Shown: in pieces, positions 20,409-64,000 of the stretch
Layout of the letters: every line of letters begins with the position of its first letter
How positions within the stretch are numbered: the stretch's first letter is position 1
From: Candidatus Forterrea multitransposorum CG_2015-17_Forterrea_25_41
GTDB lineage: Archaea; Iainarchaeota; Iainarchaeia; Iainarchaeales; CSSED10-239
Reading direction: 5' to 3'
DNA length: 64,000 bases
Assembly: GCA_009392915.1 (NCBI GenBank)
Contig: CP045477.1
Coordinates: forward strand, 128,001 to 192,000
Translations under genes and position numbers: made by a program
Notes under the pieces: model-generated
What the model was told of the DNA's origin: nothing
The model's database searches: none
The model's input: only the letters and a program-made list of their open reading frames with translations

Positions 20409-20602
20409 AAATCTATTCCTTTATAAATATTTTGTATCTATAAAATATTTATGACTTACAATAATACTTTAAGTTTTTATAAAGATAACTTAATTTCTAT
20501 AATTATAAGTATTATTATATATTGATAGGCAAAGATTAACCTTCATTCTAATTTTAATCTTTTGCCAAAATTTTAAGCTTTAAAGGTAGGTGGGCAAAAA
20601 TT

Positions 20603-23647: not shown

Positions 23648-23982
23648 AGGTTATTTATAGTTTTTTCTTATATTTTATTTTTAATAATCTTTTTTTAAAT
23701 TAATTTTTATAATTAATAAATATCTTTAAAAGGTTATTTTCAATTCCTTTATAAATATTTTGCTTCTTATTAATATTTATGTATTTCAAAATACTTTTAT
23801 CAAAAACAAGATTTTTACAAATCTACTTATTTTCTGTAGTTAACTTTAATCTCCTTTAGAGGGAGAGAATTTAATATTTATCGGTTTATATAATATTTAT
23901 AGTACTTTATTAAAATAAAGTCTAAACATATTTATAGTAATTTTTAAAAAAAATATATTTATAAAAAAGGAGTTAATAATTT

Positions 23983-25595: not shown

Positions 25596-26099
25596 ATGTT
25601 AAATAATAAAGTTAATGCTGTAATTGACTCTTCATTTTGGATAAACTTGAGTAGAGTTGATCTTACAAAATATTTATTAGATTATTTTACTATTTATTCT
25701 ACCATAAAAGTAAAAGAAGAACTTTTTGATTTTTACGAAAGAAGAGGTTATTTTTCAAAAGATTCTTATCTTTTTAAGTTATATTTAGAAGCAGATTTTA
25801 TTATTTTAAAAGACCTTAAAGAAATTACTTTAAAAATAAAGCAAGAATTGTCAAAAGATTCTGGAGAGTTATATTCTGCTGCTCTTTTAAAGGAAATTGG
25901 AGGTGTTTTTTTAACAGATGATAAGGGGGCACTTAATTTTTGCAAAAATAATAATCTTTTTGCAATTACTTCTGTTTATTTAATAGTTAGACTTTATAAG
26001 GATAATTTAATATCAAAAGAAAAAGCTAAATTTTCAATTATGCGATTAAAAGGAAAAATAAGTAATATACATATACAATCTGCTTTAAAGGATTTATAG
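25596..26099 (+). CDS. DUF3368-type PIN-like nuclease domain protein
   Basis: N-terminus AVIDSSFWINL and ..GELYSAALLKEIGGVFLTDDKGALNFCKNNNLFAITSVYLIV match the DUF3368/PIN pattern. Confidence 0.5.
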   Translation: MLNNKVNAVIDSSFWINLSRVDLTKYLLDYFTIYSTIKVKEELFDFYERRGYFSKDSYLFKLYLEADFIILKDLKEITLKIKQELSKDSGELYSAALLKEIGGVFLTDDKGALNFCKNNNLFAITSVYLIVRLYKDNLISKEKAKFSIMRLKGKISNIHIQSALKDL

Positions 26100-26119
26100 T
26101 ATAAAAGGAGGTTTTTAAC

Positions 26120-26476
26120 ATGGTTAAAAAAGATTATAAATTGAAATCTTATAGATTATCTGATAGTTCCTTAAAATTAATATATAATGTTTCTAAAGAA
26201 AAAGATTTGAGTGAATCTGAAGCTTTAAGAATGTTAGTTGACAAAGGGCTTTATGAATATAAGTTAGAGTCAGCAATAAAAACATATTATGATAAAAATT
26301 TAGATTTAACTGCTGGAGCAAAACTTGCTGGTATTTCCAAAAGAGAGTTTATGGAAGAACTTTCAAGAAAAGGGGAAGGTATTAATCTTTCAAAAGAAGA
26401 TTATGATTATTCTAAAAAATCTTTTGAAAAATTATTTGGAAAAACAAAAAAGAAAACTACTCAAAAGCCCAAGTAG
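26120..26476 (+). CDS. UPF0175-family protein (predicted HTH antitoxin-like partner of DUF3368)
   Basis: SESEALRMLVDKGLYEYKLESAI..GAKLAGISKREFMEELSRKGEG fits UPF0175; AGGAGG RBS; adjacent to the PIN-like gene. Confidence 0.5.
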   Translation: MVKKDYKLKSYRLSDSSLKLIYNVSKEKDLSESEALRMLVDKGLYEYKLESAIKTYYDKNLDLTAGAKLAGISKREFMEELSRKGEGINLSKEDYDYSKKSFEKLFGKTKKKTTQKPK

Positions 26477-44481: not shown

Positions 44482-44590
44482 ATTTTTTTACAAAATCCTT
44501 ATATTTATAAATATTATGCCTAACATATAAGTATAATATATTTTAATAAATGATAGCTGATGTTTATAGATAGAATAAAAATTCAAAGAA
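44482..44590 (+). repeat. About 110-bp promoter/leader repeat, copy 1; identical copy at 47411-47519
   Basis: An identical string (AAAATCCTTATATTTATAAATATTATGCCTAACATATAAGTATAATATATTTTAATAAATGATAGCTGATGTTTATAGATAGAATAAAAATTCAAAGAAA) includes a TTTATAAA TATA box and the first 10 codons of the downstream gene. Confidence 0.85.
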
Positions 44591-46044
44591 AGGTACAACC
44601 TTTTTTTGAAAAAAATGTTAACGAAAAAAGAAAAGCTATTAGTCCACTTATAGCAACCATTCTTTTAGTGGTTGTTGCCATAGCTATAATCGGTATTGTT
44701 CTTTCCTGGGGTAAAGGTTTTACAAACACAACTCTTTCTTCTGCAGATAATATTAATACCAAAAATTCTTTCACAGGTCTTGTTTGGTCTTTTGAAACTT
44801 TTGGAAATAATGTCTTGGTTGAAAATAAATCAAAACAAGATTTAAACATTACTGGTTATACTATTAACTCTCTTGATCATAATGGTTTTTGGATAAACTC
44901 ATATCATCCTTTAGAAACTACTTTATCAATTTCTCCTGGAACTTCAAACAATGTTCCTTTGATCTGTATGCCTGAGGGAAAATTTATTTTAACTCTAAAG
45001 ACATCCTCAAATGAAAATATACCTCTTAACATCTCTCCTTCGAAAACACTTTTAGGAGGAACTTGTGAAGAATATAATGTTTCTCTTTGGGAATTTGCAG
45101 CAGAAACTGGAAGTTATGAGATTAATGAGATTGCTTTAGAGCAGGGTAATAATTATAGTAATTATAATTTTTTATTTAGTTGGACTGAAGTAAGTGCTAC
45201 TATAAATGATTCTAATACATTTAGTTCAACAAGTGTTGGTGGAATCACTAAGCAAACTACATGGATGGAGGTAGGTAAGAGATATAAATTAAAAATTTCA
45301 GGGACAACAACCGCTTCAGGAATAGTTATATTTTCTGGAAACAACGGAACATATATAGGTTCTTTAACTACTGGCAATTTTAGTCAAACATTTAAAAAAA
45401 CAATACTTGCTGTAAATCCTGGTTTAGACTTATATATAAGGAATTCATCAGCAGGAGTTACAACAATTACTGAATTGTCAGTAATAGAAATTCCTCCCCT
45501 TCCTGATTTTAACACAGGCACAAAATATTTACAAAATACTACTTCAGGAACAACTGCTATTGAAAGTAAACAAGCTTATGGTGAATGGGAGTTTGATGTT
45601 TATAAAGGTAGTACATTAACCAATTCATTTGTAAAAATAATCTCAGATGCCATAATAGGCAGCGTAGGTGGAAATTCTTATACTATTCAATTTAATGTAG
45701 ATGAAGCATTAAAGTTATGGAGAGGTGGCACTGCCATTATGAGTACAGCAAATTCCTACATCTCCAAAAACACTTGGTACAGAATAAAAGTAGCAAGACT
45801 TCAAAGTTCTGGAACATTTGCAATTATAGTTCCTTCGATGACCACAACCTATCCAAAAGACACATTTGCAGTTTTCATAAAAGGTGGGGAGTTTGGAGAT
45901 GATTGGACTTTAGTAGATACAACAGGTGGAAGTGGAACAAACCCTGTCACAGACTCTACATACACTACAAGCAATTATTTTGTTGCAGACCTTGATGTTG
46001 GAGATAGAATAGCAAATATTAAAATGAAGGAGAGTGTTGACTAA
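44560..46044 (+). CDS. Class-III-signal-peptide (archaeal type-IV-pilin-like) surface protein, paralog 1
   Basis: Leader ...EKRKA|ISPLIATILLVVVAIAIIGIVL is the prepilin-peptidase substrate motif (K/R-A/G then a hydrophobic helix); about 460-aa extracellular domain rich in Thr/Ser/Asn. Confidence 0.6.
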   Translation: MFIDRIKIQRKVQPFFEKNVNEKRKAISPLIATILLVVVAIAIIGIVLSWGKGFTNTTLSSADNINTKNSFTGLVWSFETFGNNVLVENKSKQDLNITGYTINSLDHNGFWINSYHPLETTLSISPGTSNNVPLICMPEGKFILTLKTSSNENIPLNISPSKTLLGGTCEEYNVSLWEFAAETGSYEINEIALEQGNNYSNYNFLFSWTEVSATINDSNTFSSTSVGGITKQTTWMEVGKRYKLKISGTTTASGIVIFSGNNGTYIGSLTTGNFSQTFKKTILAVNPGLDLYIRNSSAGVTTITELSVIEIPPLPDFNTGTKYLQNTTSGTTAIESKQAYGEWEFDVYKGSTLTNSFVKIISDAIIGSVGGNSYTIQFNVDEALKLWRGGTAIMSTANSYISKNTWYRIKVARLQSSGTFAIIVPSMTTTYPKDTFAVFIKGGEFGDDWTLVDTTGGSGTNPVTDSTYTTSNYFVADLDVGDRIANIKMKESVD

Positions 46045-46045
46045 A

Positions 46046-47383
46046 ATGTTTTCAAAAGTAAATAAAAAAGCTATTAGTCCACTTATAGCAACCATCCTTT
46101 TAGTGGTTGTTGCCGTAGCTATCATCGGTATTGTTCTTTCTTGGGGAAAAGGCTTTACAAACACAACTCTTTCAAAAGCTTCAAGTATTGAAGTTTATTC
46201 AGAATCAGAAATTGGTTTTTATTTAAATCTTCAAAACTCAATAAACGGAAGAACCACAGTTTCTTATAACCCTCCACAAAATACTACTTATAATAATCTA
46301 ACAATAGTTGGTTATGGCCTTTTAGGATATACAACAAACATAGTTCCTTTAGAACCTCCAATAACTATTTCAAAATCACAAACTGCAAATATTGATCATG
46401 GTATAATTTTACCTGAATTTGATTTAGTTTTATATTTAGATAACAATACTATGATAACTAAATTTAATTTAAAACAAGAAATTAAACAACCTTCTTCTTG
46501 TCCTGAAGGTTTTATTCCAGTTCCTGGAAATCATTTATATGGAACCATGAATGAAAGAGGTGGTTTTTGTGTAATGAAATATCATGCAAAAAATGACACT
46601 GGCTCAAAAATAAATTCAACTTGTATAACAGGTCTAGAAGGTTCTGATAGTAATCTAACAGTTAAATCAGTTCCAGAAATTGCTCCTTCAGTAAATATAA
46701 ATTATTGTGCTGCAAAAAAATCTTGTGAAAATTCAGGATATATTTTAATGAATAATTCTCATTGGATGACTATTGCAAGAAATATTGAACTAAATGAATT
46801 AAATTATGTTTCTGGAAATCTAGGTGAAGGCTTTATTTTTAGAGGGCATTATAATAATAATCCATCTTTAATTATTGAAGCAAATTCAGATGATTCAAAT
46901 AATTTTTATTTAATAAACAGTCCAAACTCAGATCAAAGAAGAACTTTATATTTATCTAATGGAGAAATAATTTGGGATTTTACTGGAAATGCATGGAATA
47001 TATTAGAAGATTTAGTTTTAATAAAGGATCATGCAGATGGTTTTTATACTTCTGATGATACTGAGTTTAATTCTGGTAATGATAATTTATTTCTAACGGA
47101 TTATTATAAAGGTAGTAATAATTATTATTTAAAATTTAATCAATTAGGTAATACTATTTTTAATTATAAAGATATTTATTTATTAAATTCAAAATACAAT
47201 GCTGTAAATAATGGTATTGGTATTTACCATGGAAATAGTAATAGAGGAAGTGTTTCTGAAACTATTACTTTTATGATGAGAGGTGGAGATAAACAAAATG
47301 GTCAATATTCTGGTTTAATGGAATTAACATTCCCTAATTTAAGTTCTAATGGAAATACAGTTGGATTTAGATGTGTGAAATAA
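46046..47383 (+). CDS. Class-III-signal-peptide surface protein, paralog 2 (short leader)
   Basis: MFSKVNKKA|ISPLIATILLVVVAVAIIGIVLSWGKGFTNTTLS is identical to the pilin module of paralogs 1 and 3. The remainder is unrelated and Cys-rich. ATG lies 2 nt after the paralog 1 stop; the track start at 46034 is a GTG. Confidence 0.55.
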   Translation: MFSKVNKKAISPLIATILLVVVAVAIIGIVLSWGKGFTNTTLSKASSIEVYSESEIGFYLNLQNSINGRTTVSYNPPQNTTYNNLTIVGYGLLGYTTNIVPLEPPITISKSQTANIDHGIILPEFDLVLYLDNNTMITKFNLKQEIKQPSSCPEGFIPVPGNHLYGTMNERGGFCVMKYHAKNDTGSKINSTCITGLEGSDSNLTVKSVPEIAPSVNINYCAAKKSCENSGYILMNNSHWMTIARNIELNELNYVSGNLGEGFIFRGHYNNNPSLIIEANSDDSNNFYLINSPNSDQRRTLYLSNGEIIWDFTGNAWNILEDLVLIKDHADGFYTSDDTEFNSGNDNLFLTDYYKGSNNYYLKFNQLGNTIFNYKDIYLLNSKYNAVNNGIGIYHGNSNRGSVSETITFMMRGGDKQNGQYSGLMELTFPNLSSNGNTVGFRCVK

Positions 47384-47410
47384 ATATATCTCTTTTTTTA
47401 AAAAATTATT

Positions 47411-47519
47411 AAAAATCCTTATATTTATAAATATTATGCCTAACATATAAGTATAATATATTTTAATAAATGATAGCTGATGTTTATAGATAGAATAAAA
47501 ATTCAAAGAAAAGAAAAAA
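47411..47519 (+). repeat. About 110-bp promoter/leader repeat, copy 2
   Basis: Identical to 44482-44590. Confidence 0.85.
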
Positions 47520-49333
47520 CTTTTTTTGAAAAAAATGTTGACAAAAAAAGAAAAGCTATTAGTCCACTTATAGCAACCATCCTTCTTGTAGTTGTTGCTG
47601 TTGCCATCATCGGTATTGTTCTTTCTTGGGGAAAAGGTTTTACAAACACAACTCTTTCTTCTGCAGATAATGTTAATACCAAAAATTCTTTCACAGGTCT
47701 TATTTGGTCTTTTGAAACTTTTGGAAATAATGTTTTAGTTGAGAATAAATCAAAACAAGATTTAAATATTACTGGTTATACTATTAATTCTCTTGATCAT
47801 AATGGTTTTTGGATAAACTCTTATCATCCTTTAGAAACCACTCTTTCAATATCTCCTGGAACTTCAGATAATGTGTCTTTGATTTGTATGCCAGAGGGTA
47901 AATTTATTTTAACTTTAAAAACCTCAACAAATGAAAACATACCTCTTAACATCTCTCCTTCAAAAACAAGTAGAGGTTCTACTTGTGAGGAGTATAATGT
48001 TTCTCTTTGGGAGTTTGTAGCAGAAACTGGAAGTTATTCTATTAATACTTTTACAATGCAGGAAGGAGAACTTGTAACTAACGGTGGGTTTGAGACTGAT
48101 TTATCTGGTTGGTTAAGAACAAGTCATATTATTCAAAATAATGATGTTGCAGATGTTAATCTTATTGGCTCTGATTATATTTTAGAACAACAAAATGTTG
48201 TAGAAATGGGTAAAAGTTACTTAGTTACTTTTGAAATTAAAAACTATTATTCAGGTGCAGTTTATTTTTATAATGTTAATTTGCCAGGGGTAGGTAGTGG
48301 TTATACTGCAACTTCAAATGGGGTTTATGCACTAACATTTACATCTAGTGGAAATAACATCTTATTTCGAACTGTAACTAATTTTGTAGGATCTATTGAT
48401 AATATCTCAATAGTAGAAATCCCTCCTCTTGAAACAATAACCACAGGCACAAAATACTTAGAGAACACAACAGCAGGAACAACTGCTATTGAAAATAAAC
48501 AAGCTTATGGTACTTGGGAATTTGATGTTTATAAAGAAAATGCAAATTATCATTATACATATTTTATAAATTCTACCACAAATACAATGGATAATAGTTA
48601 TAGAATTACTTTAAAAAATTTTAATGCTTTAGATTTAAGAAAACAAGGTGATTCAACTTTAACATTATTATTAACTTCTGATAATTATATTCAAGATAAT
48701 ACTTGGTATAGAATAAAAGTTGCAAGACTTCAAAGCGAAGGTGTGTTTAACGACATACCTACTTTGCAGACTAGTGATATGGTGAATAGTGCAACACAAC
48801 CTTACCAATCATTTACAAGTAAGGGGAGATATGGATTCAGTGCTATTGCAAATGGAACTACAATTACTCATGCTAATACAGCAGATGAAATAGACCTTGT
48901 AAATACAGGAAAATACCTTGTAGAATTTGATTTAAAATTAAACAGCGGGATAGCCCCAGATGTAGCATTAGCAGCAAGTGTAACAAGTGGGTTGTATTCT
49001 AATTCAGTTCAATCTATTGTAGGGAGAAATAGTTTTATACTTACTGCAAGTAATTCAATTACAGGGATATTAAGGTTTTATAACAGTTCTACTGAGTCTG
49101 CAGACTACGAAGTTTCAAACTTAACAATCAGAAGAATCTACCCAAAAGACACATTTGCAGTATTTATTAAAGGTGGAGAGTTTGGAGATGATTGGACTTT
49201 AGTAGATACAACAGGTGGAAGTGGAACAAACCCTGTCACAGACTCTACATATACAACAAGCAATTACTTTGTAGCTGACCTTGATGCTGGAGATAGAATA
49301 GCTAATGTTAAAATAAAACCAAATATTGAATAA
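47480..49333 (+). CDS. Class-III-signal-peptide surface protein, paralog 3, with a central CBM4/9-like carbohydrate-binding-type module
   Basis: First about 190 aa and last about 65 aa are nearly identical to paralog 1. The central region begins NGGFETDLSGWL, reminiscent of CBM_4_9 N-termini. Confidence 0.6.
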   Translation: MFIDRIKIQRKEKTFFEKNVDKKRKAISPLIATILLVVVAVAIIGIVLSWGKGFTNTTLSSADNVNTKNSFTGLIWSFETFGNNVLVENKSKQDLNITGYTINSLDHNGFWINSYHPLETTLSISPGTSDNVSLICMPEGKFILTLKTSTNENIPLNISPSKTSRGSTCEEYNVSLWEFVAETGSYSINTFTMQEGELVTNGGFETDLSGWLRTSHIIQNNDVADVNLIGSDYILEQQNVVEMGKSYLVTFEIKNYYSGAVYFYNVNLPGVGSGYTATSNGVYALTFTSSGNNILFRTVTNFVGSIDNISIVEIPPLETITTGTKYLENTTAGTTAIENKQAYGTWEFDVYKENANYHYTYFINSTTNTMDNSYRITLKNFNALDLRKQGDSTLTLLLTSDNYIQDNTWYRIKVARLQSEGVFNDIPTLQTSDMVNSATQPYQSFTSKGRYGFSAIANGTTITHANTADEIDLVNTGKYLVEFDLKLNSGIAPDVALAASVTSGLYSNSVQSIVGRNSFILTASNSITGILRFYNSSTESADYEVSNLTIRRIYPKDTFAVFIKGGEFGDDWTLVDTTGGSGTNPVTDSTYTTSNYFVADLDAGDRIANVKIKPNIE

Positions 49334-49543
49334 AAACCAAATATTTAGTAACTTTTAATTTTTTTAAACTATTTTTAACCATAAAGAAACATATTTAAAT
49401 AGAACTCTACCTATATTATATATTATTAGACTTTTTTATATTAGTTGTTTAAACAATAACTTTTTAAAAAAAAAGAATCTATAAAGATGAGAATATATTC
49501 TTATATAAAAGATATATTTGATATAAACATGAGGTGAGAACTC

Positions 49544-52098: not shown

Positions 52099-53391
52099 AT
52101 GTTTGGTCTTTTAAAAAAGAAATTCAAAGATTTGTCAGATAAAATATTAGGTAAATCTAAAGAAAAAATTGATTCTGAAGATCAAAGTCAAGAAGAAACT
52201 TCTTCTGATACTTCTAAGACTTTAGATGTTCCTGAAGAAAAATCTCCTGTTTCTAAAGAGCCAATATCTAATTCTGAAGAACTTTCTGTTCCTAAAGTTG
52301 AAGATGCTAAAGAAGAAATCCCTGTTCCTAAGGTTGAAGATGTTAAAGAAGAAAAATCTACTCCTAAGGTTGAAGATGTTAAAGAAGAAATCCCTATTCC
52401 TAAAGTTGAAGAAATTAAAGAAGAAAAACCTATTTTAAAAGAAGAAATAAAAGAAGATAAACAACCTTCAAAAGCATATACAGATTTAGAATCTAAAAAA
52501 GTTGAAGACGTAAAAAAAACAACTTTTACAAAAATAAAAAGTTTATTTTCATCAAAAATAAAATTATCTGAAAAAGAAATATCTGAATTTTTAGATGATT
52601 TTGAAATTTCTTTACTTGAAGCAGATGTTTCTATTGATTCTTCAACAGCAATTATTGAAGATTTAAAAAAAAGATTAGTTAATGCTTCTTTTTCAAAAAC
52701 AAATATCTTAGAAGATATTAAAAAAAATATTAAAGAAACTTTAAAAGAACAATTAAATATTGATTGTGATATTAATAATTATATTTCTCAAAAACAAAAT
52801 GAACCTTTAATAATTTTAATAATTGGACCTAATGGTGCTGGAAAAACAACAACTATTTCTAAATTTGCAAATCTTTATAAAAATCAAGGTAAATCTGTGG
52901 TTCTAGCTTCTTCAGATACTTTCAGAGCAGGAAGTATTGATCAATTAGAAGTGCATGCAAAGAGATTAGGTGTAAAAGTTGTAAAACAAAATTATGGTTC
53001 AGATCCTGCTGCAGTTGCTTTTGATGCAGTTGCTTCTGCTAAAGCAAATAAAAACGATGTTGTTTTAATTGATACTGCTGGTAGACAAGATACAAATATT
53101 AATCTAATGCAAGAACTCTCAAAAATAAAAAGAGTAGTAAAACCAGATCTTACAATTTATATTGGAGAATCTCAATCTGGACAAACAATTGTTGAACAAA
53201 TACAAAAGTTTGATAAAGAAATAGGTGTTACTGGAGTAATTTTAACAAAGATTGATACTGACCCAAAAGGTGGAGTTGCAATTTCTATTCTTAATGAAAT
53301 TAAAAAACCTATTTTCTATATTGGTACAGGTCAAGAGTATAATGATATAGAAAAATTTTCTCCAGAATATATTATTGAAAGAATTGTTTAG
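52099..53391 (+). CDS. ftsY: Signal recognition particle receptor FtsY with an acidic repeat N-domain
   Basis: NG domain LIIGPNGAGKTTTISKFA, DTAGR, TKIDTD; N-terminal (PKVEDVKEE)n repeats. Confidence 0.85.
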   Translation: MFGLLKKKFKDLSDKILGKSKEKIDSEDQSQEETSSDTSKTLDVPEEKSPVSKEPISNSEELSVPKVEDAKEEIPVPKVEDVKEEKSTPKVEDVKEEIPIPKVEEIKEEKPILKEEIKEDKQPSKAYTDLESKKVEDVKKTTFTKIKSLFSSKIKLSEKEISEFLDDFEISLLEADVSIDSSTAIIEDLKKRLVNASFSKTNILEDIKKNIKETLKEQLNIDCDINNYISQKQNEPLIILIIGPNGAGKTTTISKFANLYKNQGKSVVLASSDTFRAGSIDQLEVHAKRLGVKVVKQNYGSDPAAVAFDAVASAKANKNDVVLIDTAGRQDTNINLMQELSKIKRVVKPDLTIYIGESQSGQTIVEQIQKFDKEIGVTGVILTKIDTDPKGGVAISILNEIKKPIFYIGTGQEYNDIEKFSPEYIIERIV

Positions 53392-57711: not shown

Positions 57712-58821
57712 ATGAGTTTTACAATTACAAAAAAAGATAAAAAAACAAATGCAAGAATTGGTATTTTTAAAACTAATCATGGAACCATAAAGACTCCTTT
57801 TTTTATGCCAGTTGTAACTAAAGGAATTGCAAAGTTTATAACTTTAGATATTTTAGATGATATTAAAACACAATGTTTTATTTCAAATTGTTATTTATTA
57901 TACTTAAAACCAGGAAAAGAACTTTTAGAAAAAACAAAAGGTTATCATAATTTTATAAATTGGAAAAAACCTATTTTTACAGATTCTGGTGGGTTTCAAC
58001 TTAAAAATCCAAGTTTTTTTATATCAATGAATGATAAAGGAGTTTGGTTTAAATCTCCTTTTGATGGATCTAAACATTTTATGTCTCCTGAAAAAGTAAT
58101 TGAGATGCAGAATGTTATTGGTTCTGATATTGCAATGATATTAGATGATATGCAAGATGCTAATCTTTCAAGAGAAGCTTATGAAATTGCAACTGATAGA
58201 ACTATAGCTTGGGCAAAAAGAGCTATCCTTGCACATAAAAATAAGAAGCAAATGCTTTTTGGAATAGTTCAAGGTGGTGTATATAAGGATTTAAGAGAAA
58301 AATGTGCAAAAGAAATAAATAAACTTCCATTTGATGGTCTTGCAATTGGTGGACTTGCTTTAGGTGAGCCTAAAGAATCCATGCATAAAGCAATTGATTA
58401 TTCTTTAAAACATTTAGATGAAGAGAAAATAAAATATTTAATGGGTTTAGGATCTCCAGAAGACATTATTGTTTCAATTGGTAAAGGAGTTGATTGTTTT
58501 GATTCTATATATCCTACAAAAATGGCAAGACATGGTTTTATTTTTACAAGAAAAGGTCCTATTTTTTTAAAGAAAGCAAAATATAAAGATGTTTTTGAGC
58601 CTATTGAAAAAGATTGTGATTGCCCTACTTGTAAAAGGCATACACTTGCATACCTTCATCATCTTTTAAGACTTGATGAGCCAGGTGTTAAGATTCTTTT
58701 ATCTATTCATAATATTAGATTTTTACATAGGCTTTTAGAAGATTCTAGAAAAGAAATAGAAAAAGGAACTTTTGAGAGTTTTCAAAAGAAATTTTTAAAA
58801 GAATTTAAAAAAAGAGATTAA
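57712..58821 (+). CDS. tgt: tRNA-guanine transglycosylase family protein (catalytic domain only)
   Basis: FTDSGGFQL, LGLGSPED, and zinc site CDCPTC..H; 369 aa with no PUA-type C-terminal domain. Confidence 0.7.
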   Translation: MSFTITKKDKKTNARIGIFKTNHGTIKTPFFMPVVTKGIAKFITLDILDDIKTQCFISNCYLLYLKPGKELLEKTKGYHNFINWKKPIFTDSGGFQLKNPSFFISMNDKGVWFKSPFDGSKHFMSPEKVIEMQNVIGSDIAMILDDMQDANLSREAYEIATDRTIAWAKRAILAHKNKKQMLFGIVQGGVYKDLREKCAKEINKLPFDGLAIGGLALGEPKESMHKAIDYSLKHLDEEKIKYLMGLGSPEDIIVSIGKGVDCFDSIYPTKMARHGFIFTRKGPIFLKKAKYKDVFEPIEKDCDCPTCKRHTLAYLHHLLRLDEPGVKILLSIHNIRFLHRLLEDSRKEIEKGTFESFQKKFLKEFKKRD

Positions 58822-58846
58822 AGAATAGTTTTTAAAAAAATAAAAA

Positions 58847-59299
58847 CTATCTTAAAAATAATTTAGCAATCTTATATTTAATAGATCTAAAAAAACCTTT
58901 AGTCTTAATCTCAAGTTCTTTTGTTTTAAAAGCTTGATTAATTTCTGTCATTGGATCTTCTGCTTCTAAGATTCTATTTATTACTTCTTCTTTTCCTGTA
59001 ATCCAAACATTTACGTTTTCAATATTTTCTTTTGTAACTTTATATTCTTTATTTTCAAGTCTTTCAATAAAAATTTCTAAAGGTTCTTCAGTTGTTTGAA
59101 TCTCAATTTTCATTTTATCATTTTTAATTGCATTTTGTGCAATTTTTGGTAATTGTTCAATGTTGTTTACAAAGTCTATTTTTACTTCGTCTATATTTTC
59201 ATAATAATATCTAATATCTTTTGATTCTGCAAAAACCATTGTGCTATTAAATATTAATAATGCTAAAGTTATTCCAAATAATATATTTTTATAGTTCAT
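58847..59299 (-). CDS. Small secreted protein (hypothetical)
   Basis: Signal peptide MNYKNILFGITLALLIFNSTMVFA. Confidence 0.3.
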   Translation of the reverse strand: MNYKNILFGITLALLIFNSTMVFAESKDIRYYYENIDEVKIDFVNNIEQLPKIAQNAIKNDKMKIEIQTTEEPLEIFIERLENKEYKVTKENIENVNVWITGKEEVINRILEAEDPMTEINQAFKTKELEIKTKGFFRSIKYKIAKLFLR

Positions 59300-59325
59300 A
59301 AAGTATTTAAAGCTTCAAAATATTT

Positions 59326-59994
59326 TTAAATAAGATTGTTTTCTTTAAATGAGAAATATTTTTGATTTGTAATTATTAAATGATCTAAAAAAGTTATCTC
59401 TAAAAGCTTGCAAGCTTCTTTTATTTTTGTCGTAGCTATTTTATCTTCTCTTGAAGGATAACATTCTCCTGAAGGGTGATTGTGTGCTATGATTATTGCT
59501 TGAGCATTTTCTTTTAAAGCTTCTTTTAATATTTCTTTTTCAGAAACTAAGGTTTGGTTATCTGTTCCAATAGTTATTATTTTTTTTGAAATAACTTCGT
59601 TTCCTTTTAGAAATAGTGTGATTAAATGTTCTTGTTCTTTATTTTCAATATCATGTCTTAATATTTCATATGCTGTTTTTGGAGAATAAATTTTTTCTGA
59701 AGTTTTTATATTTTTTATAGATATCCTTTTGTAAAGTTCTATGATTGCTTTTATTTGAGAGGCTTTTACAATACCAATACCTTTTATCTTAAGAAGTTGA
59801 TTAATTGATATATTTTCAAGATCTTGAAAGGTATATCTTGAAAGAATCTGGTTTGATATATCTAGAACATTATATTCTTTTGTTCCTGTCTTTAGAATGA
59901 TTGCTAGAAGTTCGCTATTTGATAGACTTTTTTCTCCATCTCTTGAAAGTCTTTCAAGAGGTCTGTTTTCTGGTGCTATATCTTTTAGTCTCAT
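59326..59994 (-). CDS. radC: RadC-like JAB/MPN-domain protein
   Basis: HhH-like N-terminus and the JAMM motif IIIAHNHPSGECYPSREDKIATTKI. Confidence 0.7.
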   Translation of the reverse strand: MRLKDIAPENRPLERLSRDGEKSLSNSELLAIILKTGTKEYNVLDISNQILSRYTFQDLENISINQLLKIKGIGIVKASQIKAIIELYKRISIKNIKTSEKIYSPKTAYEILRHDIENKEQEHLITLFLKGNEVISKKIITIGTDNQTLVSEKEILKEALKENAQAIIIAHNHPSGECYPSREDKIATTKIKEACKLLEITFLDHLIITNQKYFSFKENNLI

Positions 59995-60140
59995 TTTATT
60001 TAAAAAAGAAAATAAATATTTCTCTCCACTAATAAATATACTTAATCCTTTATTTAAGGGAGGGGAAAAAAAGGTCTTTCCATAAAAGAAAGTACCTTTC
60101 TAATAGATGCATATTTCTAAATAATATATATCCTTTAACA

Positions 60141-60190
60141 AATATATCTCTTTTCAAGCAGGGGGTAGCTGGCCGAGTAAATTAATTTAG
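60141..60190. repeat. GC-rich island repeat, copy R1
   Basis: AATATATCTCTTTTCAAGCAGGGGGTAGCTGGCCGAGTAAATTAATTTAG; also present at 60856-60905 and, slightly diverged, at 61942-61986. Confidence 0.9.
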
Positions 60191-60513
60191 TATTTAAATC
60201 TCTTTTCATAACTTTTATGATTAAACCATTCTATAATAATAGATATAATTTTAATTTGATCACTTTTAATTGTGTATACTAATCTCCATCCATTAAATAG
60301 ATTATATTTCCAAAGGTTTGTAATTTTATATTTTTTAATATATTCTTTTGGCCATAATTTTTTTGAAATTTTAATTCCAGAAGTAGGATCTTTTTTAAGA
60401 GTTTCAATTGCTTTTAGAATATTTTTATACAAATCATGATTTTCTTTAAGGTTTTCAAAATTAATTTCTAATTCTCTTGAAACAAATACAACATAATTTT
60501 CTTTATCAATCAT
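60187..60513 (-). CDS. RelE/ParE-superfamily toxin-like protein
   Basis: ..NILKAIETLKKDPTSG...LWKYNLFNGWRLVYTIKSDQIKIISIIIEWFNHKSY fits the RelE/ParE fold; 4-nt overlap with the upstream small gene. Confidence 0.5.
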   Translation of the reverse strand: MIDKENYVVFVSRELEINFENLKENHDLYKNILKAIETLKKDPTSGIKISKKLWPKEYIKKYKITNLWKYNLFNGWRLVYTIKSDQIKIISIIIEWFNHKSYEKRFKY

Positions 60514-60779
60514 CTTAATTTAACACCTAAAGATAATATTTTTGAAATATTTTTTTTATCATATATCCAAATTACAATATTATCTTTATCAATAATAATC
60601 TTACTAGATTCTTCTAGATATTCAAGAATTATTTTGTATGTCTGATACATCATTTTTTTAGGTATTTTTTTCCATAATTGATAGATAGTATACTGAGAAC
60701 TATATTTTTTAATAGTATTTTCAACCATTAAGATACTCTCAAGCTTTGGACTATGATATTTTATTTTTTCTTTAGGCAT
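60510..60779 (-). CDS. Putative antitoxin/partner of the RelE-like gene (89 aa)
   Basis: Translationally coupled upstream ORF. I place the start at the internal ATG (MPKEKIKY...) because the track start is a TTG lying inside repeat R2. Confidence 0.35.
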   Translation of the reverse strand: MPKEKIKYHSPKLESILMVENTIKKYSSQYTIYQLWKKIPKKMMYQTYKIILEYLEESSKIIIDKDNIVIWIYDKKNISKILSLGVKLR

Positions 60780-60855
60780 ATTATATAACTTTATATAAGT
60801 TAAATTTTTAAATATTTTTATTTGCCTAAAGTATATATTAATATGTGTTTTAAAA

Positions 60856-60905
60856 AATATATCTCTTTTCAAGCAGGGGGTAGCTGGCCGAGTAAATTAA
60901 TTTAG
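60856..60905. repeat. GC-rich island repeat, copy R2
   Basis: Identical to R1 over about 50 nt. Confidence 0.9.
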
Positions 60906-61904
60906 AACTTTTTTTAATTCTTTTTCATTTGGTAAAAATGTACTTAATTTTTTAGGAATTTTAGATAATTTGTATTCTGCTATTCCTAATGGATATTTAT
61001 TATTTAATAAAGAATATTCTACTATTGTCTTATTCTTAGATTTACATATTAATAATCCAATAGTTTCTTTATCTTCTTTTCTTTTCATATCTTTATTTAT
61101 TACATTAATATAAAACCCTATTTGGCCAAGATATTCTGGTTTGAATTCAGTAATTTTTAATTCAATTACTATAAATCTTTTTAAAATATAATTATAAAAT
61201 AATAAATCTATATAAAAATCTTTATTTCCAACATTAATTTTAAATTGTTTTCCAATAAATGCAAATCCTTTTCCTAATTCTATTAAAAATTTAGATATAT
61301 TTGAAACAATAGATTCTTCTAATTCTTTTTCATTAAATTCTTCTTTTAAATGTAAAAAATCTAATATATAATTTTCTTTAAAATAATTTAAAATAAATTT
61401 TGAATCTTTTTTTGGAAGTGTGTTTAAAAAATTAATGTTTATGTTTTTTTTTCTTGCATATAAATTTAATTCTATTTGATGTTCTAATAATACTTTAGAC
61501 CATAAATTATTAATTGATTCTTGAATATAGAAAAGTGCTTCTTCTTTATTTTTAATTTTATCTAGAATTAATCTTATTTGATTCCAAGGTAATTGTGCCA
61601 CAACTTGTGGCACATTTTCTGTTTTAAAAAATAAATAGAATTTTCTCATATAAAATAAATTTCTTCTCGAAAAACCTTTTACATTAGGGAATTCTTTTCT
61701 TAAATCTTTTTCTATTTGCCCAATTAAATTTATTCCCCAATTACTTTCTTTTTGTTTAAAATAAATTTCTTTTCCAAGAGTGTAATAAAGATTAATTAAT
61801 TCTGAATTTACTTTTAATATTGCATTTTGTCTTGATTTAATAATGTTTTCTTTAATTTTAGAAATAAATTCTATATATTCTTTATTAAATATATTTTTTT
61901 CCAT
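60897..61904 (-). CDS. DUF1016/YhcG-family PD-(D/E)XK nuclease
   Basis: ..VAQLPWNQIRLIL ... GKGFAFIGKQ ... FYIDLLFYNYILKRFIVIELKITEF.PEYLGQIGFYIN has the YhcG-family layout (D...ELK core). Confidence 0.55.
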   Translation of the reverse strand: MEKNIFNKEYIEFISKIKENIIKSRQNAILKVNSELINLYYTLGKEIYFKQKESNWGINLIGQIEKDLRKEFPNVKGFSRRNLFYMRKFYLFFKTENVPQVVAQLPWNQIRLILDKIKNKEEALFYIQESINNLWSKVLLEHQIELNLYARKKNININFLNTLPKKDSKFILNYFKENYILDFLHLKEEFNEKELEESIVSNISKFLIELGKGFAFIGKQFKINVGNKDFYIDLLFYNYILKRFIVIELKITEFKPEYLGQIGFYINVINKDMKRKEDKETIGLLICKSKNKTIVEYSLLNNKYPLGIAEYKLSKIPKKLSTFLPNEKELKKVLN

Positions 61905-61941
61905 ATCTTATCTATTCTAGATATATTTTATATTTTTACAA

Positions 61942-61986
61942 AAATATATCTCTTTTCAAGCAGGGGGTAGCTAGCTGAGTAAAAAA
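61942..61986. repeat. GC-rich island repeat, copy R3 (3' part diverged)
   Basis: AAATATATCTCTTTTCAAGCAGGGGGTAGCTAGCTGAGTAAAAAAG, in the divergent intergenic region between 60897-61904 (-) and 62084-63298 (+). Confidence 0.85.
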
Positions 61987-62083
61987 GATTAAATTTTAAT
62001 TTCTATAGCCAATAACCTACATTAACATTATAAACTCTTTCTCTCTTAAATATATTATTAAATATAAAAAATAAGATTATATT

Positions 62084-63298
62084 ATGAGATATTCACATTC
62101 TTCCATGGAGACTTTTAGAAATTGTCCTCTTCAATTTAAATATAAGTATATTGAAAAAGTAGATATACCTATTAAAAATAATATAGAAGCATTCATGGGT
62201 TCAATGGTCCATAATACTTTAGAAAAATTATATACAGATCTAAAATATAATAAATTATTATCTTTAGATGAAGTATTAGATTATTACAATAAATCTTGGA
62301 CAGATAATTTTTCATTTGATAAAGTAGAAATTATAAGAGAAGGTTATACTGAAGAAAACTACAAGTCTTTAGGTCAAGATTACCTAAAAAATTATTATAA
62401 TACTTATAAACCTTTCAATCAAGGAAAAACTATTGGCCTTGAAATGCAAGTAAATATTTCTTTATATGATAAAGAAAGACAAAAAACTTATGATCTTATA
62501 GGTTATATTGATAGACTTTCTTTAGTTTCAGATAATCATATAGAAATTATAGATTATAAAACAAATAATTCTGCAAAAACTCAACAAGAGGTAGATGTTG
62601 ATAAACAACTTGCTCTTTATTCTATAGCAATTAAAGAAAAATTTCCTTTTGTTGAAAAAATAGATCTTTGTTGGTTTTTTTTGTCAGCTGGTATAAAACA
62701 AGTTTCAACAAGAACTGTAGATGATTTAGAAAAATTAAAACAAGAAACAATAGAAATTATAAGGGAGATCGAAGATTCTAAGCAAAAAAATAATTTTCCA
62801 GGTAAACCTTCTGCTCTTTGTGATTGGTGTGCTTTTAGGTCAATTTGTCCTTTTAAAGCACACGATGTTATTACTAAAAATCTTTCAGAAAATGAATATT
62901 TAAAAGAAGAGGGTGTTTTCTTAGTTGATAAGTATCAAGAATTTACTGAAAAAAAGAAAGCTTTACTTGATGAAATTGATCCAGAGATTGAAAAGGTAAA
63001 AGAAGCAATAATTAATTATTCTAAAAAGAATAATTTAGAAAAGCTTTTTGGAAAAGAAAAATCTTTAATTGTAAAAGAATATTCTTCTTTTAAAATACCT
63101 GAAAAAAAATCAAAAGAAAGAGAAGAACTTGAAGCTCTTTTAAAGGAAAATAATTTTTGGCCTTTTGTTTCTGATCTTTCATATATAGAAATTTCAAATC
63201 TTATAAAAAATGGTTTTTTTGAAAGTTCTTTTAAAGAAAAACTTTTAAAATATTTAAAAGAAGAAAAAATAAATAGACTTTATTTAAATAAAAAATAA
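62084..63298 (+). CDS. PD-(D/E)XK nuclease-family protein (PDDEXK_1 / Cas4-RecB-like) with a C-terminal Cys cluster
   Basis: N-terminal YSHSSMETFRNCPLQFKYKYI; IDYKT (D-x-K) core; C-x2-C-x5-C (CDWCAFRSICP). Confidence 0.55.
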   Translation: MRYSHSSMETFRNCPLQFKYKYIEKVDIPIKNNIEAFMGSMVHNTLEKLYTDLKYNKLLSLDEVLDYYNKSWTDNFSFDKVEIIREGYTEENYKSLGQDYLKNYYNTYKPFNQGKTIGLEMQVNISLYDKERQKTYDLIGYIDRLSLVSDNHIEIIDYKTNNSAKTQQEVDVDKQLALYSIAIKEKFPFVEKIDLCWFFLSAGIKQVSTRTVDDLEKLKQETIEIIREIEDSKQKNNFPGKPSALCDWCAFRSICPFKAHDVITKNLSENEYLKEEGVFLVDKYQEFTEKKKALLDEIDPEIEKVKEAIINYSKKNNLEKLFGKEKSLIVKEYSSFKIPEKKSKEREELEALLKENNFWPFVSDLSYIEISNLIKNGFFESSFKEKLLKYLKEEKINRLYLNKK

Positions 63299-63300
63299 TT

Positions 63301-63564
63301 TTATTTATTTCTCATAAAAAACTCTAAAACTTCTTGTTTAGTTTTACCTGTTTTTTCTGCAACTTCTTTAATAATAATTTCTACAAATTTAGAAGATACT
63401 ACTTTATTTCCTTTTTTTAAAATTATTTCTCTACCATGACTATCTCTAAAAACAATATGTCTATGGTTTCCTTTTTCCTTTTCAAAACCAAGTTTATTGT
63501 ATATTCTTTCAAGTTGTTCTGGTCTTAATGTTGAAGGTTTTTTTCCATTAAAAGGTTTTGCCAT
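63301..63564 (-). CDS. HicA-like toxin (YcfA family), tentative
   Basis: ..LERIYNKLGFEKEKGNHRHIVFRDSHGREIILKKG..VSSKFVEIIIKEVAEKTG follows the HicA pattern (GSH...h.....p.h...k.i..g.l..il). Confidence 0.4.
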   Translation of the reverse strand: MAKPFNGKKPSTLRPEQLERIYNKLGFEKEKGNHRHIVFRDSHGREIILKKGNKVVSSKFVEIIIKEVAEKTGKTKQEVLEFFMRNK

Positions 63565-63578
63565 TTTTAATCTTTCCT

Positions 63579-64000
63579 TTATTTAAAATCCATATTTATT
63601 TTAATTTCTTCTAAAACAGCAGTAATAAATTCATTTAAGGGTATATTTAGTTTAGTTTCACATAATCTTATTTCTTCTCTTGAAACAGCTGCTGCAAATG
63701 TTTTGTCTTTAAATTTTTTAATAATAGATTTTGTTTCTGCATTTTTAATTTCTTTATCTGGTCTCATTAAAACATATGCTCTAATAATTCCAGTTAAGCC
63801 ATCTACAGAAAAGAGAGCATTTTCTACAGTTTCTTTTCTTTCTATTTTCAAAGCATCGTTATGTGATTTAATAATATCTATTATCTCTTGAGAGATTCCT
63901 TCTTCTTGTAATATTTTTTCTCCAACTAAACAATGCACATTAATATCTCCATTATATTTTTCAATATCAATGTCATGGAGTGCACCAATCAAAAACCATT
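63579..64000 (-). CDS. HD-domain phosphohydrolase, C-terminal part; partial, continues beyond the window end
   Basis: ..WFLIGALHDIDIEKY...H..GEKILQEEG.SQEIIDIIKSHND is the HD/HDIG signature. The track 'M' is a TTG and the frame stays open to nt 64000. Confidence 0.5.
   Translation of the reverse strand, partial: WFLIGALHDIDIEKYNGDINVHCLVGEKILQEEGISQEIIDIIKSHNDALKIERKETVENALFSVDGLTGIIRAYVLMRPDKEIKNAETKSIIKKFKDKTFAAAVSREEIRLCETKLNIPLNEFITAVLEEIKINMDFK

What the first reader, a model, noticed from the sequence alone, without database searches (positions are those of the whole stretch)
60141..61986. Three copies of a ~45-50-bp GC-rich repeat unique to the nuclease/toxin island
AATATATCTCTTTTCAAGCAGGGGGTAGCTGGCCGAGTAAATTAATTTAG occurs at 60141-60190 and 60856-60905 (identical) and at 61942-61986 (3' end diverged to CTAGCTGAGTAAAAAAG). 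It is found nowhere else in 64 kb. The G5 run and GGCCGAG stand out against the AT-rich background. In the sense of the minus-strand genes, each copy lies about 40-150 nt upstream of a start (RadC, the RelE operon, the YhcG nuclease). Each copy is also immediately downstream of the preceding unit, and two ORFs terminate inside its 3' end. R3 sits in the divergent promoter region shared with the PDDEXK_1 nuclease. Candidate roles are a shared operator for a common regulator, a cassette-boundary or recombination site, or a MITE-like insertion. The unit has no obvious dyad symmetry.
Basis: seen in the sequence. Interest (0 to 1): 0.65.

Follow-up and report, generated by a model that had tools for sequence, protein, structure and literature searches.

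The report
Duplicated promoter-region element bounding inserted gene cassettes
The three repeats are copies of a conserved control-region element of a tiny DPANN archaeon, normally found once beside a repair-nuclease gene and once beside the replication-initiator gene orc1, and it was duplicated each time an accessory gene (a nuclease, a toxin pair) was inserted next to it, so it now marks the borders of gene cassettes that strains gain or lose.

Summary
There are two identical 50-mers and one diverged copy, with none expected by chance.

The element is not confined to the island. The same genome carries a fourth copy about 85 nt upstream of orc1/cdc6, outside the window.

In six related 'Ca. 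ainarchaeum' lineages, one copy of the element (TATATA, T-tract, G-run, GGTAnCTGKCCGAGAAA) appears ancestral at two divergent intergenic regions:
- RadC <> RecB-like PD-(D/E)XK nuclease
- a 56-aa ORF <> orc1

In this species, two cassettes have split the RadC/nuclease region: a YhcG nuclease and a weakly RelE/ParE-like pair. Each is bounded by a copy of the element. Some strains lack the toxin cassette exactly at the repeat.

Similar insertions occurred independently elsewhere:
- KilA-N at the orc1 copy, flanked by ~95-nt repeats.
- KTSC at the RadC copy, with the second copy decayed.

I found no hairpin, dyad, terminal inverted repeats, tRNA or Rfam similarity. The attC-like, MITE and tRNA-att readings are therefore rejected.

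Best reading: this is a conserved promoter/operator module that also serves as a recurrent insertion and recombination site bounding cassettes. Two things remain unresolved: which protein binds it, and whether insertion is site-specific or homology-driven.

The parts
60141..60190 (+). Repeat copy 1, on the RadC side. Sub-parts: TATA-like 60142-60147, T-tract 60148-60157, G-run 60161-60165, core GGTAGCTGGCCGAG 60164-60177, and a stop-codon-rich tail 60178-60190.
   Evidence: Exact 50-mer. Its left flank is homologous to the RadC-side intergenic sequence of species A and D. It keeps CCGAG in every strain seen.
60856..60905 (+). Repeat copy 2, between the toxin cassette and the YhcG cassette.
   Evidence: Identical to copy 1 in the window. 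Some strains have GGTCGAG here. It is absent as a separate copy in strains L002 and L004.
61942..61986 (+). Repeat copy 3, at the ancestral position upstream of the PD-(D/E)XK nuclease gene. Its core is decaying (AGCTGAG or GGCTGAG, with G-run changes in some strains).
   Evidence: Its right flank aligns with the nuclease-proximal intergenic sequence of species A, B and D.
60191..60855 (-). Cassette 1. It holds an 89-aa ORF (60510-60779) and a 108-aa toxin-like ORF (60187-60513), and is present or absent between strains.
   Evidence: ORFs. Pfam gives only weak YoeB/ParE hits, E 1.7e-4 and 3.3e-3, below the curated cut-off. Missing in L002 and L004. This exact protein was seen only in this context.
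60906..61941 (-). Cassette 2. It holds the YhcG/DUF1016 PD-(D/E)XK nuclease gene (ORF 60897-61904; the last two codons and the stop lie in copy 2).
   Evidence: Pfam YhcG_C 4.6e-55 and DUF1016_N 1.6e-39. Absent from the syntenic site in species A, B and D. Frameshifted in strain L001.
59326..59994 (-). RadC gene, the resident leftward neighbour of the ancestral intergenic region.
   Evidence: Pfam RadC 1.2e-39. The tgt / 150-aa ORF / RadC synteny holds in species A, B and D.
59995..60140 (-). Ancestral left part of the intergenic region (the RadC leader). It holds a hairpin at 60070-60099 followed, in the RadC sense, by T7 and CCCCTCCC.
   Evidence: Aligns with species A and D. A hairpin is predicted in all three with different stem sequences.
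61987..62083 (+). Ancestral right part of the intergenic region, the proximal upstream region of the nuclease gene.
   Evidence: Aligns with species A, B and D (ATTATAAACTCTTT block).
62084..63298 (+). PD-(D/E)XK (RecB-family/Cas4-like) nuclease gene, the resident rightward neighbour.
   Evidence: Pfam PDDEXK_1 4.2e-34. Orthologues are widespread in DPANN and other archaea.

Best explanation
The repeat is a conserved intergenic control element, called M here. This archaeal lineage normally carries it once between RadC and a RecB-like PD-(D/E)XK nuclease gene, and once between a 56-aa ORF and orc1/cdc6.

Composition of M (shown by sequence):
- a TATA box
- a T-tract, which reads as a purine-rich BRE on the strand of the leftward genes
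- a variable G-run
- an invariant core, GGTAnCTGKCCGAG, 23-25 nt from the TATA box

Inferred function: M acts as a promoter plus a binding site for an unidentified factor, in a divergent promoter region.

What happened in this species (shown):
- Two accessory cassettes were inserted into the RadC/nuclease intergenic region just to the right of M.
- They are the YhcG nuclease and a toxin-like pair. The YhcG insertion is inferred to be the older.
- Both point the same way as RadC.
- Each is bounded by a copy of M, giving M1-toxin cassette-M2-YhcG cassette-M3.
- The inserted ORFs run into the duplicated sequence and use its stop codons.

Inferred consequences: the direct repeats are substrates for recombination, which would explain why the toxin cassette is precisely absent in some strains. 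The most likely route is loop-out and re-entry of cassette circles carrying one M. This could run on general homologous recombination or on an unidentified site-specific enzyme.

Copies 2 and 3 appear to be drifting, whereas copy 1 and the orc1 copy are conserved.
For: The repeat is real and non-random.

Fourth copy:
- It lies about 85 nt upstream of orc1 and in the same orientation as the gene.
- The gene is confirmed as Cdc6/Orc1 by Pfam.

Conservation at orc1: an orthologous element sits at the same place in strain L011 and in four further lineages whose Orc1 is 63-83 % identical.

Ancestral state at the RadC/nuclease locus:
- Species A has RadC <- 260 nt -> nuclease, one M and no cassette.
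- Its whole intergenic region aligns as (left flank of copy 1) + M + (right flank of copy 3).

Strain polymorphism: the toxin cassette is missing exactly at the repeat in some strains.

Independent insertions in relatives:
- KilA-N at the orc1 M in species C, flanked by ~95-nt direct repeats.
- KTSC to the right of the RadC-side M in species D, with a decayed second copy.
- A HATPase_c_4 gene in species B.
- All inserted genes point leftward.

A profile of M finds only these sites in about 300 kb of sequence from these genomes.

Spacing: the TATA-to-CCGAG distance is 23-25 nt in 10 of 11 sites.

Exchange between loci: in this species the orc1 and RadC-side copies match at 35 of 36 core positions, against 68 % in species A.

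Drift of the duplicates: CCGAG is intact in copy 1 and the orc1 copy in all strains, but mutated in copy 3 in all strains and in copy 2 in some.
Against: - There is no transcription-start or binding data, so promoter direction and factor binding are inferred from sequence alone.
- The cassettes seem to have their own TATA-like sequences nearer their start codons, so M need not drive them.
- In species D the nuclease-side copy has decayed, so M is not indispensable for the nuclease gene.
- In species B the extra gene has no flanking duplication.
- Only M-containing loci were examined in depth, so 'hot spot' is partly an ascertainment effect. As partial controls, another inserted gene (Fic in L023) has no flanking long repeat, and the window has no other intergenic repeat family that brackets genes.
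- The step that first created a 50-95-nt duplication is unexplained.
Confidence: 0.6

Rival explanations
1. M is the attachment site of a dedicated site-specific recombination system. A recombinase encoded elsewhere in the genome captures circular, integrase-less gene cassettes at M and excises them again. This would be functionally like an integron or a Xer/dif module system, but with a non-hairpin site.
For: - Three or four independent insertions lie at or next to M, at two different loci, in three species. All have the same orientation, and most carry an M duplication.
- The cassettes are 0.7-1.1 kb, carry no recombinase, and their ORF 3' ends abut the site.
- The cargo (a toxin-like pair, nucleases, KilA-N) is of the kind common in integron cassettes (PMC9668308).
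- The copies flanking the polymorphic cassette are identical.
- The two native loci have been homogenised in this species.
Against: - No recombinase gene appears in the window ORF list or in any fetched locus, but most ORFs were judged by eye only. Pfam was run on about 20 ORFs from the island, the orc1 locus and related loci.
- M has no dyad or paired binding arms of the kind tyrosine recombinase core sites have.
- The duplicated stretch is species-specific local sequence of variable length (40-95 nt). That fits homology-driven exchange or target duplication better than a fixed core.
- Identical cassette proteins were found only in this one context.
- M was not found on viral contigs.
Confidence: 0.22
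2. M is an Orc1/Cdc6-binding element, a lineage-specific origin recognition box. The orc1-proximal copy would mark the origin or autoregulate orc1. The island copies would be extra initiator-binding sites, either a second or captured origin or a titration cluster.
For: - One copy lies directly upstream of orc1 in all six lineages examined, in a divergent intergenic region from which genes point away on both sides.
- It has a G-run like the 'G-string' of ORBs.
- ORB clusters away from the origin, and capture of extrachromosomal elements at origins, are both described (PMC4010727; PMC1868953).
- The Orc1 of this clade gave no Pfam match to the Cdc6 C-terminal winged-helix domain, so its site could be atypical.
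Against: - M does not match the ORB consensus GTTCCAGTGGAAAC-AAA----GGGGG. The G-run is on the wrong side of the conserved block and is itself variable (GAGGG, CACGG).
- There is only one copy per orc1 intergenic region, with no inverted pair around an unwinding element.
- The island copies are direct repeats, 0.7-1.1 kb apart, with genes between them.
- Gene orientation and GC skew converge on the island, which looks more like a terminus than an origin.
Confidence: 0.13
3. The repeat is a mobile non-autonomous element (MITE-like), or the leftover of integrations into a tRNA or other RNA gene (partial gene duplication at an att site).
For: - GCAGGGGG...TGGCCGAG superficially resembles the 5' end of a type II tRNA (my own reading).
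- The copies are near-identical.
Against: - No terminal inverted repeats or fold.
- No tRNA gene or fragment by ARAGORN, or by Rfam at E<=10.
- Only four copies matched the one 20-nt core pattern in a 332-kb contig.
- The element is orthologously conserved at fixed positions across species, which a MITE would not be.
Confidence: 0.03

Closest known systems
Integron cassette arrays (attI/attC), including those reported in Archaea (Ghaly et al. 2022, PMC9668308)
   Same: - Short, mostly single-gene cassettes without their own recombinase, all in one orientation.
- Each is bounded by a repeated site that abuts the ORF's 3' end.
- Toxin-antitoxin and nuclease cargo.
[quoted passage not shown]
   Different: - attC sites work as folded single strands with paired R''/L''-L'/R' boxes, whereas M has no fold.
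- No IntI was seen.
- M is also a conserved resident element of two housekeeping loci.
- The array has only two cassettes.
Xer/dif-dependent elements: IMEX elements and pdif modules of Acinetobacter plasmids (own knowledge); archaeal XerA/dif (PMC2958812)
   Same: - Modules without a recombinase, bounded by copies of a host recombination site.
- Toxin-antitoxin modules are typical cargo.
- The island sits where gene orientation and GC skew converge.
   Different: - dif is an 11-6-11 bp imperfect palindrome, present once per chromosome.
- M has no palindrome and has a second conserved copy next to orc1.
Archaeal origin recognition boxes next to orc1/cdc6, and capture of extrachromosomal elements at origins
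   Same: - A conserved repeat with a G-run directly upstream of orc1.
- Additional copies elsewhere on the chromosome.
- Foreign genes accumulate beside it.
   Different: - No match to the mini-ORB dyad.
- A single copy per orc1 region.
- No inverted arrangement.
Integrative elements that duplicate part of their target (tRNA-gene att sites of archaeal and bacterial integrases) (own knowledge)
   Same: - Direct repeats of 40-100 bp flank the inserted DNA.
- Tandem insertions at one site.
- Precise loss between the repeats.
   Different: - The target is not an RNA gene.
- The inserts are 0.7-1.1 kb with no integrase.
Duplicated or 'mobile' promoters upstream of unrelated genes (described for bacteria; own knowledge)
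   Same: A near-identical upstream segment containing a TATA/BRE-like promoter lies in front of four unrelated genes.
   Different: Here the copies are tied to insertion events at the ancestral copy, and they include a conserved non-promoter core.

Membership tests
Integron attC site | The single strand folds into an imperfect hairpin (R''-L'' paired with L'-R'). | tested here: not met
   DNA folds of all three 70-nt copies, on both strands: MFE -0.9 to -6 kcal/mol, z from +1.5 to -1.6 against shuffles.
Integron attC site | An integron integrase (IntI) and attI lie next to the array. | tested here: inconclusive
   No recombinase among the island ORFs scanned with Pfam, nor by eye among window ORFs. 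The rest of the genome was not searched.
Integron attC site | Cassettes share one orientation, with the site at the 3' end of each ORF. | tested here: met
   YhcG and the toxin pair are both on the minus strand, and their stop codons lie inside the repeat. KilA-N in species C is arranged the same way.
Archaeal origin recognition box (ORB) | Match to the mini-ORB dyad plus a 3' G-string (GTTCCAGTGGAAAC-AAA----GGGGG). | tested here: not met
   Consensus taken from PMC1868953. M has no TCCA..TGGA dyad. A regex for it finds nothing at the orc1 loci. The G-run lies 5' of the conserved block and varies.
Archaeal origin recognition box (ORB) | Located in the intergenic region adjacent to orc1/cdc6. 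| tested here: met
   The fourth copy and its orthologues in six lineages.
Archaeal origin recognition box (ORB) | Two or more copies, typically inverted, flank an AT-rich unwinding element. | tested here: not met
   One copy per orc1 region, and no further G-run or profile hit within several kb.
Archaeal origin recognition box (ORB) | Bound by Orc1/Cdc6. | not testable with these tools
   Needs EMSA or ChIP.
dif site (Xer recombination) | Two ~11-bp inverted arms around a 6-bp spacer. | tested here: not met
   Definition from PMC2958812. M has no dyad.
dif site (Xer recombination) | A single site per chromosome, in the terminus region. | tested here: not met
   Two conserved native loci, one of them beside orc1. 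The position of the island relative to orc1 could not be measured.
MITE / non-autonomous transposon | Terminal inverted repeats, a short target-site duplication, and many dispersed copies. | tested here: not met
   No inverted termini. Only four copies matched the one 20-nt core pattern in a 332-kb contig. The element sits at orthologous positions across species.
Archaeal BRE/TATA promoter with adjacent factor site | A conserved TATA box with a purine-rich BRE on its upstream side. | tested here: met
   TATATA is present in 10 of 11 sites. The adjacent T-tract reads GAAAAGAG / AAAAAAG / GAAAATC on the leftward strand. This is sequence-level evidence only.
Archaeal BRE/TATA promoter with adjacent factor site | A gene lies downstream of every copy. 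| tested here: met
   Leftward genes and their distances from the copy: RadC (147 nt), 89-aa ORF (77 nt), YhcG (38 nt), 56-aa ORF (about 75 nt).
Archaeal BRE/TATA promoter with adjacent factor site | Transcription starts about 25 nt from the TATA box, and a regulator binds the core. | not testable with these tools
   Needs TSS mapping and binding assays.
tRNA-gene att duplication | The repeat is part of a tRNA or other RNA gene. | tested here: not met
   ARAGORN and Rfam (E<=10) find nothing at or near any copy.

The most novel reading that the evidence does not exclude
M is the recombination site of an undescribed cassette-capture platform in DPANN archaea. Small circular gene cassettes would be inserted, always in one orientation, at a non-hairpin site that doubles as the control element of orc1 and of a RecB-like nuclease gene. 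The target would be duplicated at each insertion, by an enzyme (or an initiator-linked process) that is neither an integron integrase nor Xer.
Probability: 0.2. Interest if true: 0.8.

Novelty: new variant of a known kind. Interest (0 to 1): 0.55.

Why it matters
DPANN archaea have tiny genomes, and little is known about how they regulate replication genes or acquire accessory and defence genes.

This element gives two concrete, testable handles:
- It is a conserved cis-element shared by orc1/cdc6 and a RecB-family nuclease gene across six related lineages. It is a candidate binding site for the initiator or for a cell-cycle or repair regulator.
- It is a site where unrelated accessory genes (toxin pair, YhcG nuclease, KilA-N, KTSC) were inserted repeatedly with duplication of the site, and where strains still differ.

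If a dedicated mechanism underlies this, it would be an integron-like gene-capture system of a new type. If not, it is a clean natural example of repeat-mediated gain and loss of defence or toxin cassettes in an uncultured archaeon.

Tried and rejected
- attC-like or other secondary structure: both strands of all copies were folded as DNA, and none folded better than shuffles.
- tRNA or other RNA-gene fragment: the sequence looks tRNA-like by eye, but ARAGORN on the window and seven loci, and Rfam at gathering and at E<=10, gave no hit.
- Canonical ORB: the published consensus does not fit, and no TTCCA..GGAA dyads occur at the orc1 loci.
- dif-type palindrome: absent.
- aCcr1-box of Sulfolobales RHH regulators: the motif is unrelated.
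- The 56-aa ORF divergent from orc1 looked ribbon-helix-helix-like by eye, but it has no Pfam support.
- A conserved hairpin pairing the M core with a downstream inverted partner: perfect in species B (GGGGTAGTTTGCC / GGCAAACTACC), weak in this species, and absent at orc1 and in species A. It is therefore not a general feature.
- Viral contigs: three pattern scans found nothing except one GC-rich chance hit. L003 from the metagenome scan is also a GC-rich chance hit.
- Alternative genomic contexts for the exact YhcG and toxin proteins: none among the 24 longest contigs read for each.
- Distance between the island and orc1 on one chromosome: not obtained.
- Micro-ORF in the RadC leader (MHLL...): not conserved in species A, so it was dropped.
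Full report
**Observation.** None is expected in shuffled sequence. A third, diverged copy lies at 61942-61986. The repeat finder joins the three into one direct family of 70 nt with 100/91/79 % identity. No further copy exists in the 64-kb window. This was checked with up to 7 mismatches in the 23-nt GC-rich core and with an nhmmer profile built from ten diverse copies. The toxin-like ORF and the YhcG ORF both end inside the repeat, using different TAA triplets of the tail CTAAATTAATTTA.

**Organism.** The window has 24 % G+C. It carries tRNA genes that lack an encoded CCA end, including tRNA-Ile(UAU). The same locus, almost base-for-base, is in a MAG labelled Candidatus ainarchaeum sp. (JAQVRT010000033.1), a DPANN archaeon.

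**Readings excluded.**
- None of the copies folds on either strand. MFE is -0.9 to -6 kcal/mol and z runs from +1.5 to -1.6. Archaeal and bacterial attC sites are defined by a single-strand fold (PMC9668308), so this is not an attC and not a palindromic recombinase core such as dif (11-6-11; PMC2958812).
- Rfam finds nothing at E<=10 and ARAGORN finds no tRNA at any copy. The superficial likeness of GCAGGGGG..TGGCCGAG to a tRNA 5' end is therefore not supported.

**A fourth copy beside orc1.** One metagenome scan with the 20-nt core returned eight loci.
- The 332-kb contig Ga0334898_1000022 holds the island (L006, L008) and one more copy (L005).
- That copy reads ...GAATATATCTGTTTTCAAGCAGGGGGTAGCTGGCCGAGAAAAC... 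It lies about 85 nt upstream of a gene, in the same orientation.
- Pfam identifies the gene as Cdc6/Orc1 (Cdc6_lid 7e-15 plus AAA domains).
- The element is divergent to a 56-aa ORF that other annotations also call.
- So the element is not unique to the island.

**Strain polymorphism.** In contigs NPID01000025.1 and NPIE01024198.1 (L004, L002) the 715-bp toxin cassette is absent. One repeat remains, joined to the left flank of copy 1 and the right flank of copy 2.

**Ancestral arrangement at the RadC/nuclease locus.** I fetched the tgt-RadC neighbourhood of relatives through homologues of Tgt and of the nuclease.
- Species A (Tgt 89 % identical; L013-L015) has RadC and the PD-(D/E)XK nuclease as direct divergent neighbours, 260 nt apart.
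  - It has one copy of the element, GATATATCTCTTTTCAAAGAGGGTTCCTGTCCGAGAA.
  - Its intergenic region aligns as (left flank of window copy 1) + element + (right flank of window copy 3).
- Species B (Tgt 80 %) has one copy, plus a HATPase_c_4 gene between RadC and the element.
- Species D (nuclease 84 %; L030) has a full copy on the RadC side, then a 70-aa KTSC gene, then a decayed copy before the nuclease gene.
- Conclusion: copies 1 and 3 of the window sit at the two ancestral ends of one intergenic region. The YhcG and toxin cassettes are insertions, and each is bounded by a copy of the element.

**Conservation at orc1.** Orc1 homologues at 96, 83, 79, 73 and 63 % identity were looked up.
- Every locus has the element between the 55/56-aa ORF and orc1.
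- In species C (63 %) a KilA-N gene (Pfam 3.7e-22) lies between the small ORF and orc1. It is flanked by direct repeats of about 95 nt that include the element. Its last codons and stop lie inside the repeat, and its start codon sits where the small ORF's start sits in the other copy.
- This is an independent event of the same kind at the other native locus.
- A different inserted gene in the same locus (Fic) has no such flanking repeat.

**Anatomy of the element (M).** Eleven sites were aligned. They share four features, from left to right:
- a TATATA box
- a T-tract directly to its right
- a variable G-run (GGGGG, GAGGG, GGGGGGGG, or CACGG)
- the block GGTAnCTG(G/T)CCGAG(A/T)AA, in which CCGAG is invariant at all native sites

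The TATA box and CCGAG are 23-25 nt apart in 10 of 11 sites. On the strand of the leftward genes the T-tract reads GAAAAGAG, AAAAAAG or GAAAATC immediately upstream of the TATA box. That is where an archaeal BRE lies (established promoter architecture; inference). The simplest reading is a leftward BRE/TATA promoter with a conserved factor-binding block just upstream of it, inside a divergent promoter region. A rightward start at CCGAG cannot be excluded. [quoted passage not shown]

**Signs of constraint and of exchange.**
- CCGAG is intact in copy 1 and in the orc1 copy in every strain seen.
- Copy 3 is CTGAG in all strains, with G-run changes in L009 and L004. Copy 2 is TCGAG in L001, L006 and L009.
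- I infer that the duplicates are under weaker constraint than the copies at the RadC and orc1 positions.
- In this species the orc1 copy and the RadC-side copy match at 35 of 36 core positions. In species A the two loci are only 68 % alike.
- The left half of our orc1 copy is of the RadC/nuclease type seen in species A and D. Other lineages have a different left half at orc1. This points to sequence exchange between the two loci in this lineage.

**How it most likely works.**
- Shown: one ancestral element at each of two loci; insertions next to it, most flanked by a duplicate; precise absence of one cassette in some strains; no fold.
- Inferred: M is a promoter/operator module. The direct repeats mediate loss of the cassettes, and probably re-entry, as circles carrying one M.
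- Not resolved:
  - Whether this uses general homologous recombination or a dedicated enzyme.
  - How the first 40-95-nt duplication arose at each insertion. Staggered cleavage on both sides of M followed by fill-in, as happens to a CRISPR repeat during spacer integration, is one formal possibility, from my own knowledge.
- Inferred order of events:
  - The identical copies 1 and 2 include 13 nt (TAAATTAATTTAG) that encode the last two codons and the stop of YhcG.
  - This suggests the YhcG cassette came first and the toxin cassette second.
  - That order fits the toxin cassette being the polymorphic one.

**Rivals.**
- A dedicated att-type system is the main rival, and the more novel one. Recurrence, constant orientation and cargo type speak for it. 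The lack of any recombinase in view, the lack of dyad symmetry, and the variable, species-specific extent of the duplication speak against it.
- An Orc1-binding (ORB-like) role is compatible with the position beside orc1. However, it fails the sequence and arrangement criteria for ORBs, and the island lies where gene orientation and GC skew converge rather than diverge.
- The MITE and tRNA-att readings fail their defining tests.

**Limits.**
- All functional statements rest on sequence comparison.
- Only M-bearing loci were studied in depth.
- The distance of the island from orc1 on the chromosome was not obtained.

Noticed in passing
window 60056-60099 (RadC leader); L013 10285-10345; L030 4632-4672: Between the repeat and RadC lies a hairpin (AAAGGTCTTTC / GAAAGTACCTTT). 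In the RadC sense it is followed by T7 and CCCCTCCC. Species A and D have a hairpin at the same place with different stem sequences (RNA MFE -12 to -15 kcal/mol). It could be a terminator or attenuator, or a short RNA made from the element's leftward promoter.
   Followed up: partly
window 20412-20461 and 23740-23789: An 80 %-identical 50-nt intergenic segment (..TTCCTTTATAAATATTTTG..) lies about 140-190 nt upstream of two long ORFs (starts at 20603 and 23983) that look like aminoacyl-tRNA synthetases. It may be a shared promoter or leader.
   Followed up: no
window 44492-49335: Three tandem paralogous genes (494, 445 and 617 aa) share 89-94 % identical 120-300-nt stretches that cover their upstream regions and their N-termini. 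The N-termini look like class III (pilin-type) signal peptides.
   Followed up: no
window 52276-52455: Four to five 36-nt in-frame tandem repeats (EE.PVPKVEDVK) lie in the N-terminal part of the FtsY-like gene (52099-53391).
   Followed up: no
window 58800-62100: Gene orientation and GC skew change sign here. Almost all genes from 9 to 58.8 kb are on the + strand with positive skew. Genes beyond the island (seen in L009 and L010) point back towards it. This is a terminus-like convergence.
   Followed up: partly
L001 6299-6763: In the MAG JAQVRT010000033.1 the YhcG gene is interrupted. Only a 154-aa ORF remains, with a 1-nt difference in a T-run. This suggests decay of that cassette in some strains, or an assembly error.
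   Followed up: no
L016 11708-11763 (species B): The element's core GGGGTAGTTTGCC has a perfect inverted partner, GGCAAACTACC, 27 nt downstream, upstream of the nuclease gene. A weaker partner (AGCCAATAACCT) exists at window ~62007-62018. None was seen at orc1 or in species A.
   Followed up: partly
L005 6152-6200; L011, L012, L020 and L021 just upstream of orc1: The 45 nt before the orc1 start codon (GAATAATCTTTTTAAACTAAACCCTACATTATACTTTT-ATG) are almost invariant across lineages whose Orc1 proteins are only 73-83 % identical. This looks like a proximal promoter for a near-leaderless mRNA. The CCTACATTA word recurs upstream of the window's nuclease gene (62016-62024).
   Followed up: partly
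L016 13186-13365; L023 3747-3798: Species B has about ten tandem copies of a 15-nt unit (AATTAAAATTAAAAC) downstream of the nuclease gene. Species C has two tandem 26-nt units (TATTTAAACATCTTGTGCACCCTAAC) upstream of an inserted Fic gene.
   Followed up: no
window 25596-26476 and 63301-63992: Two further small gene pairs look like toxin-antitoxin modules. One is a PIN-like 167-aa ORF with a 118-aa ORF (by eye). The other is a HicA-like 87-aa ORF (Pfam E 0.045, weak) with an HD-domain protein. The second pair is conserved in species B.
   Followed up: partly
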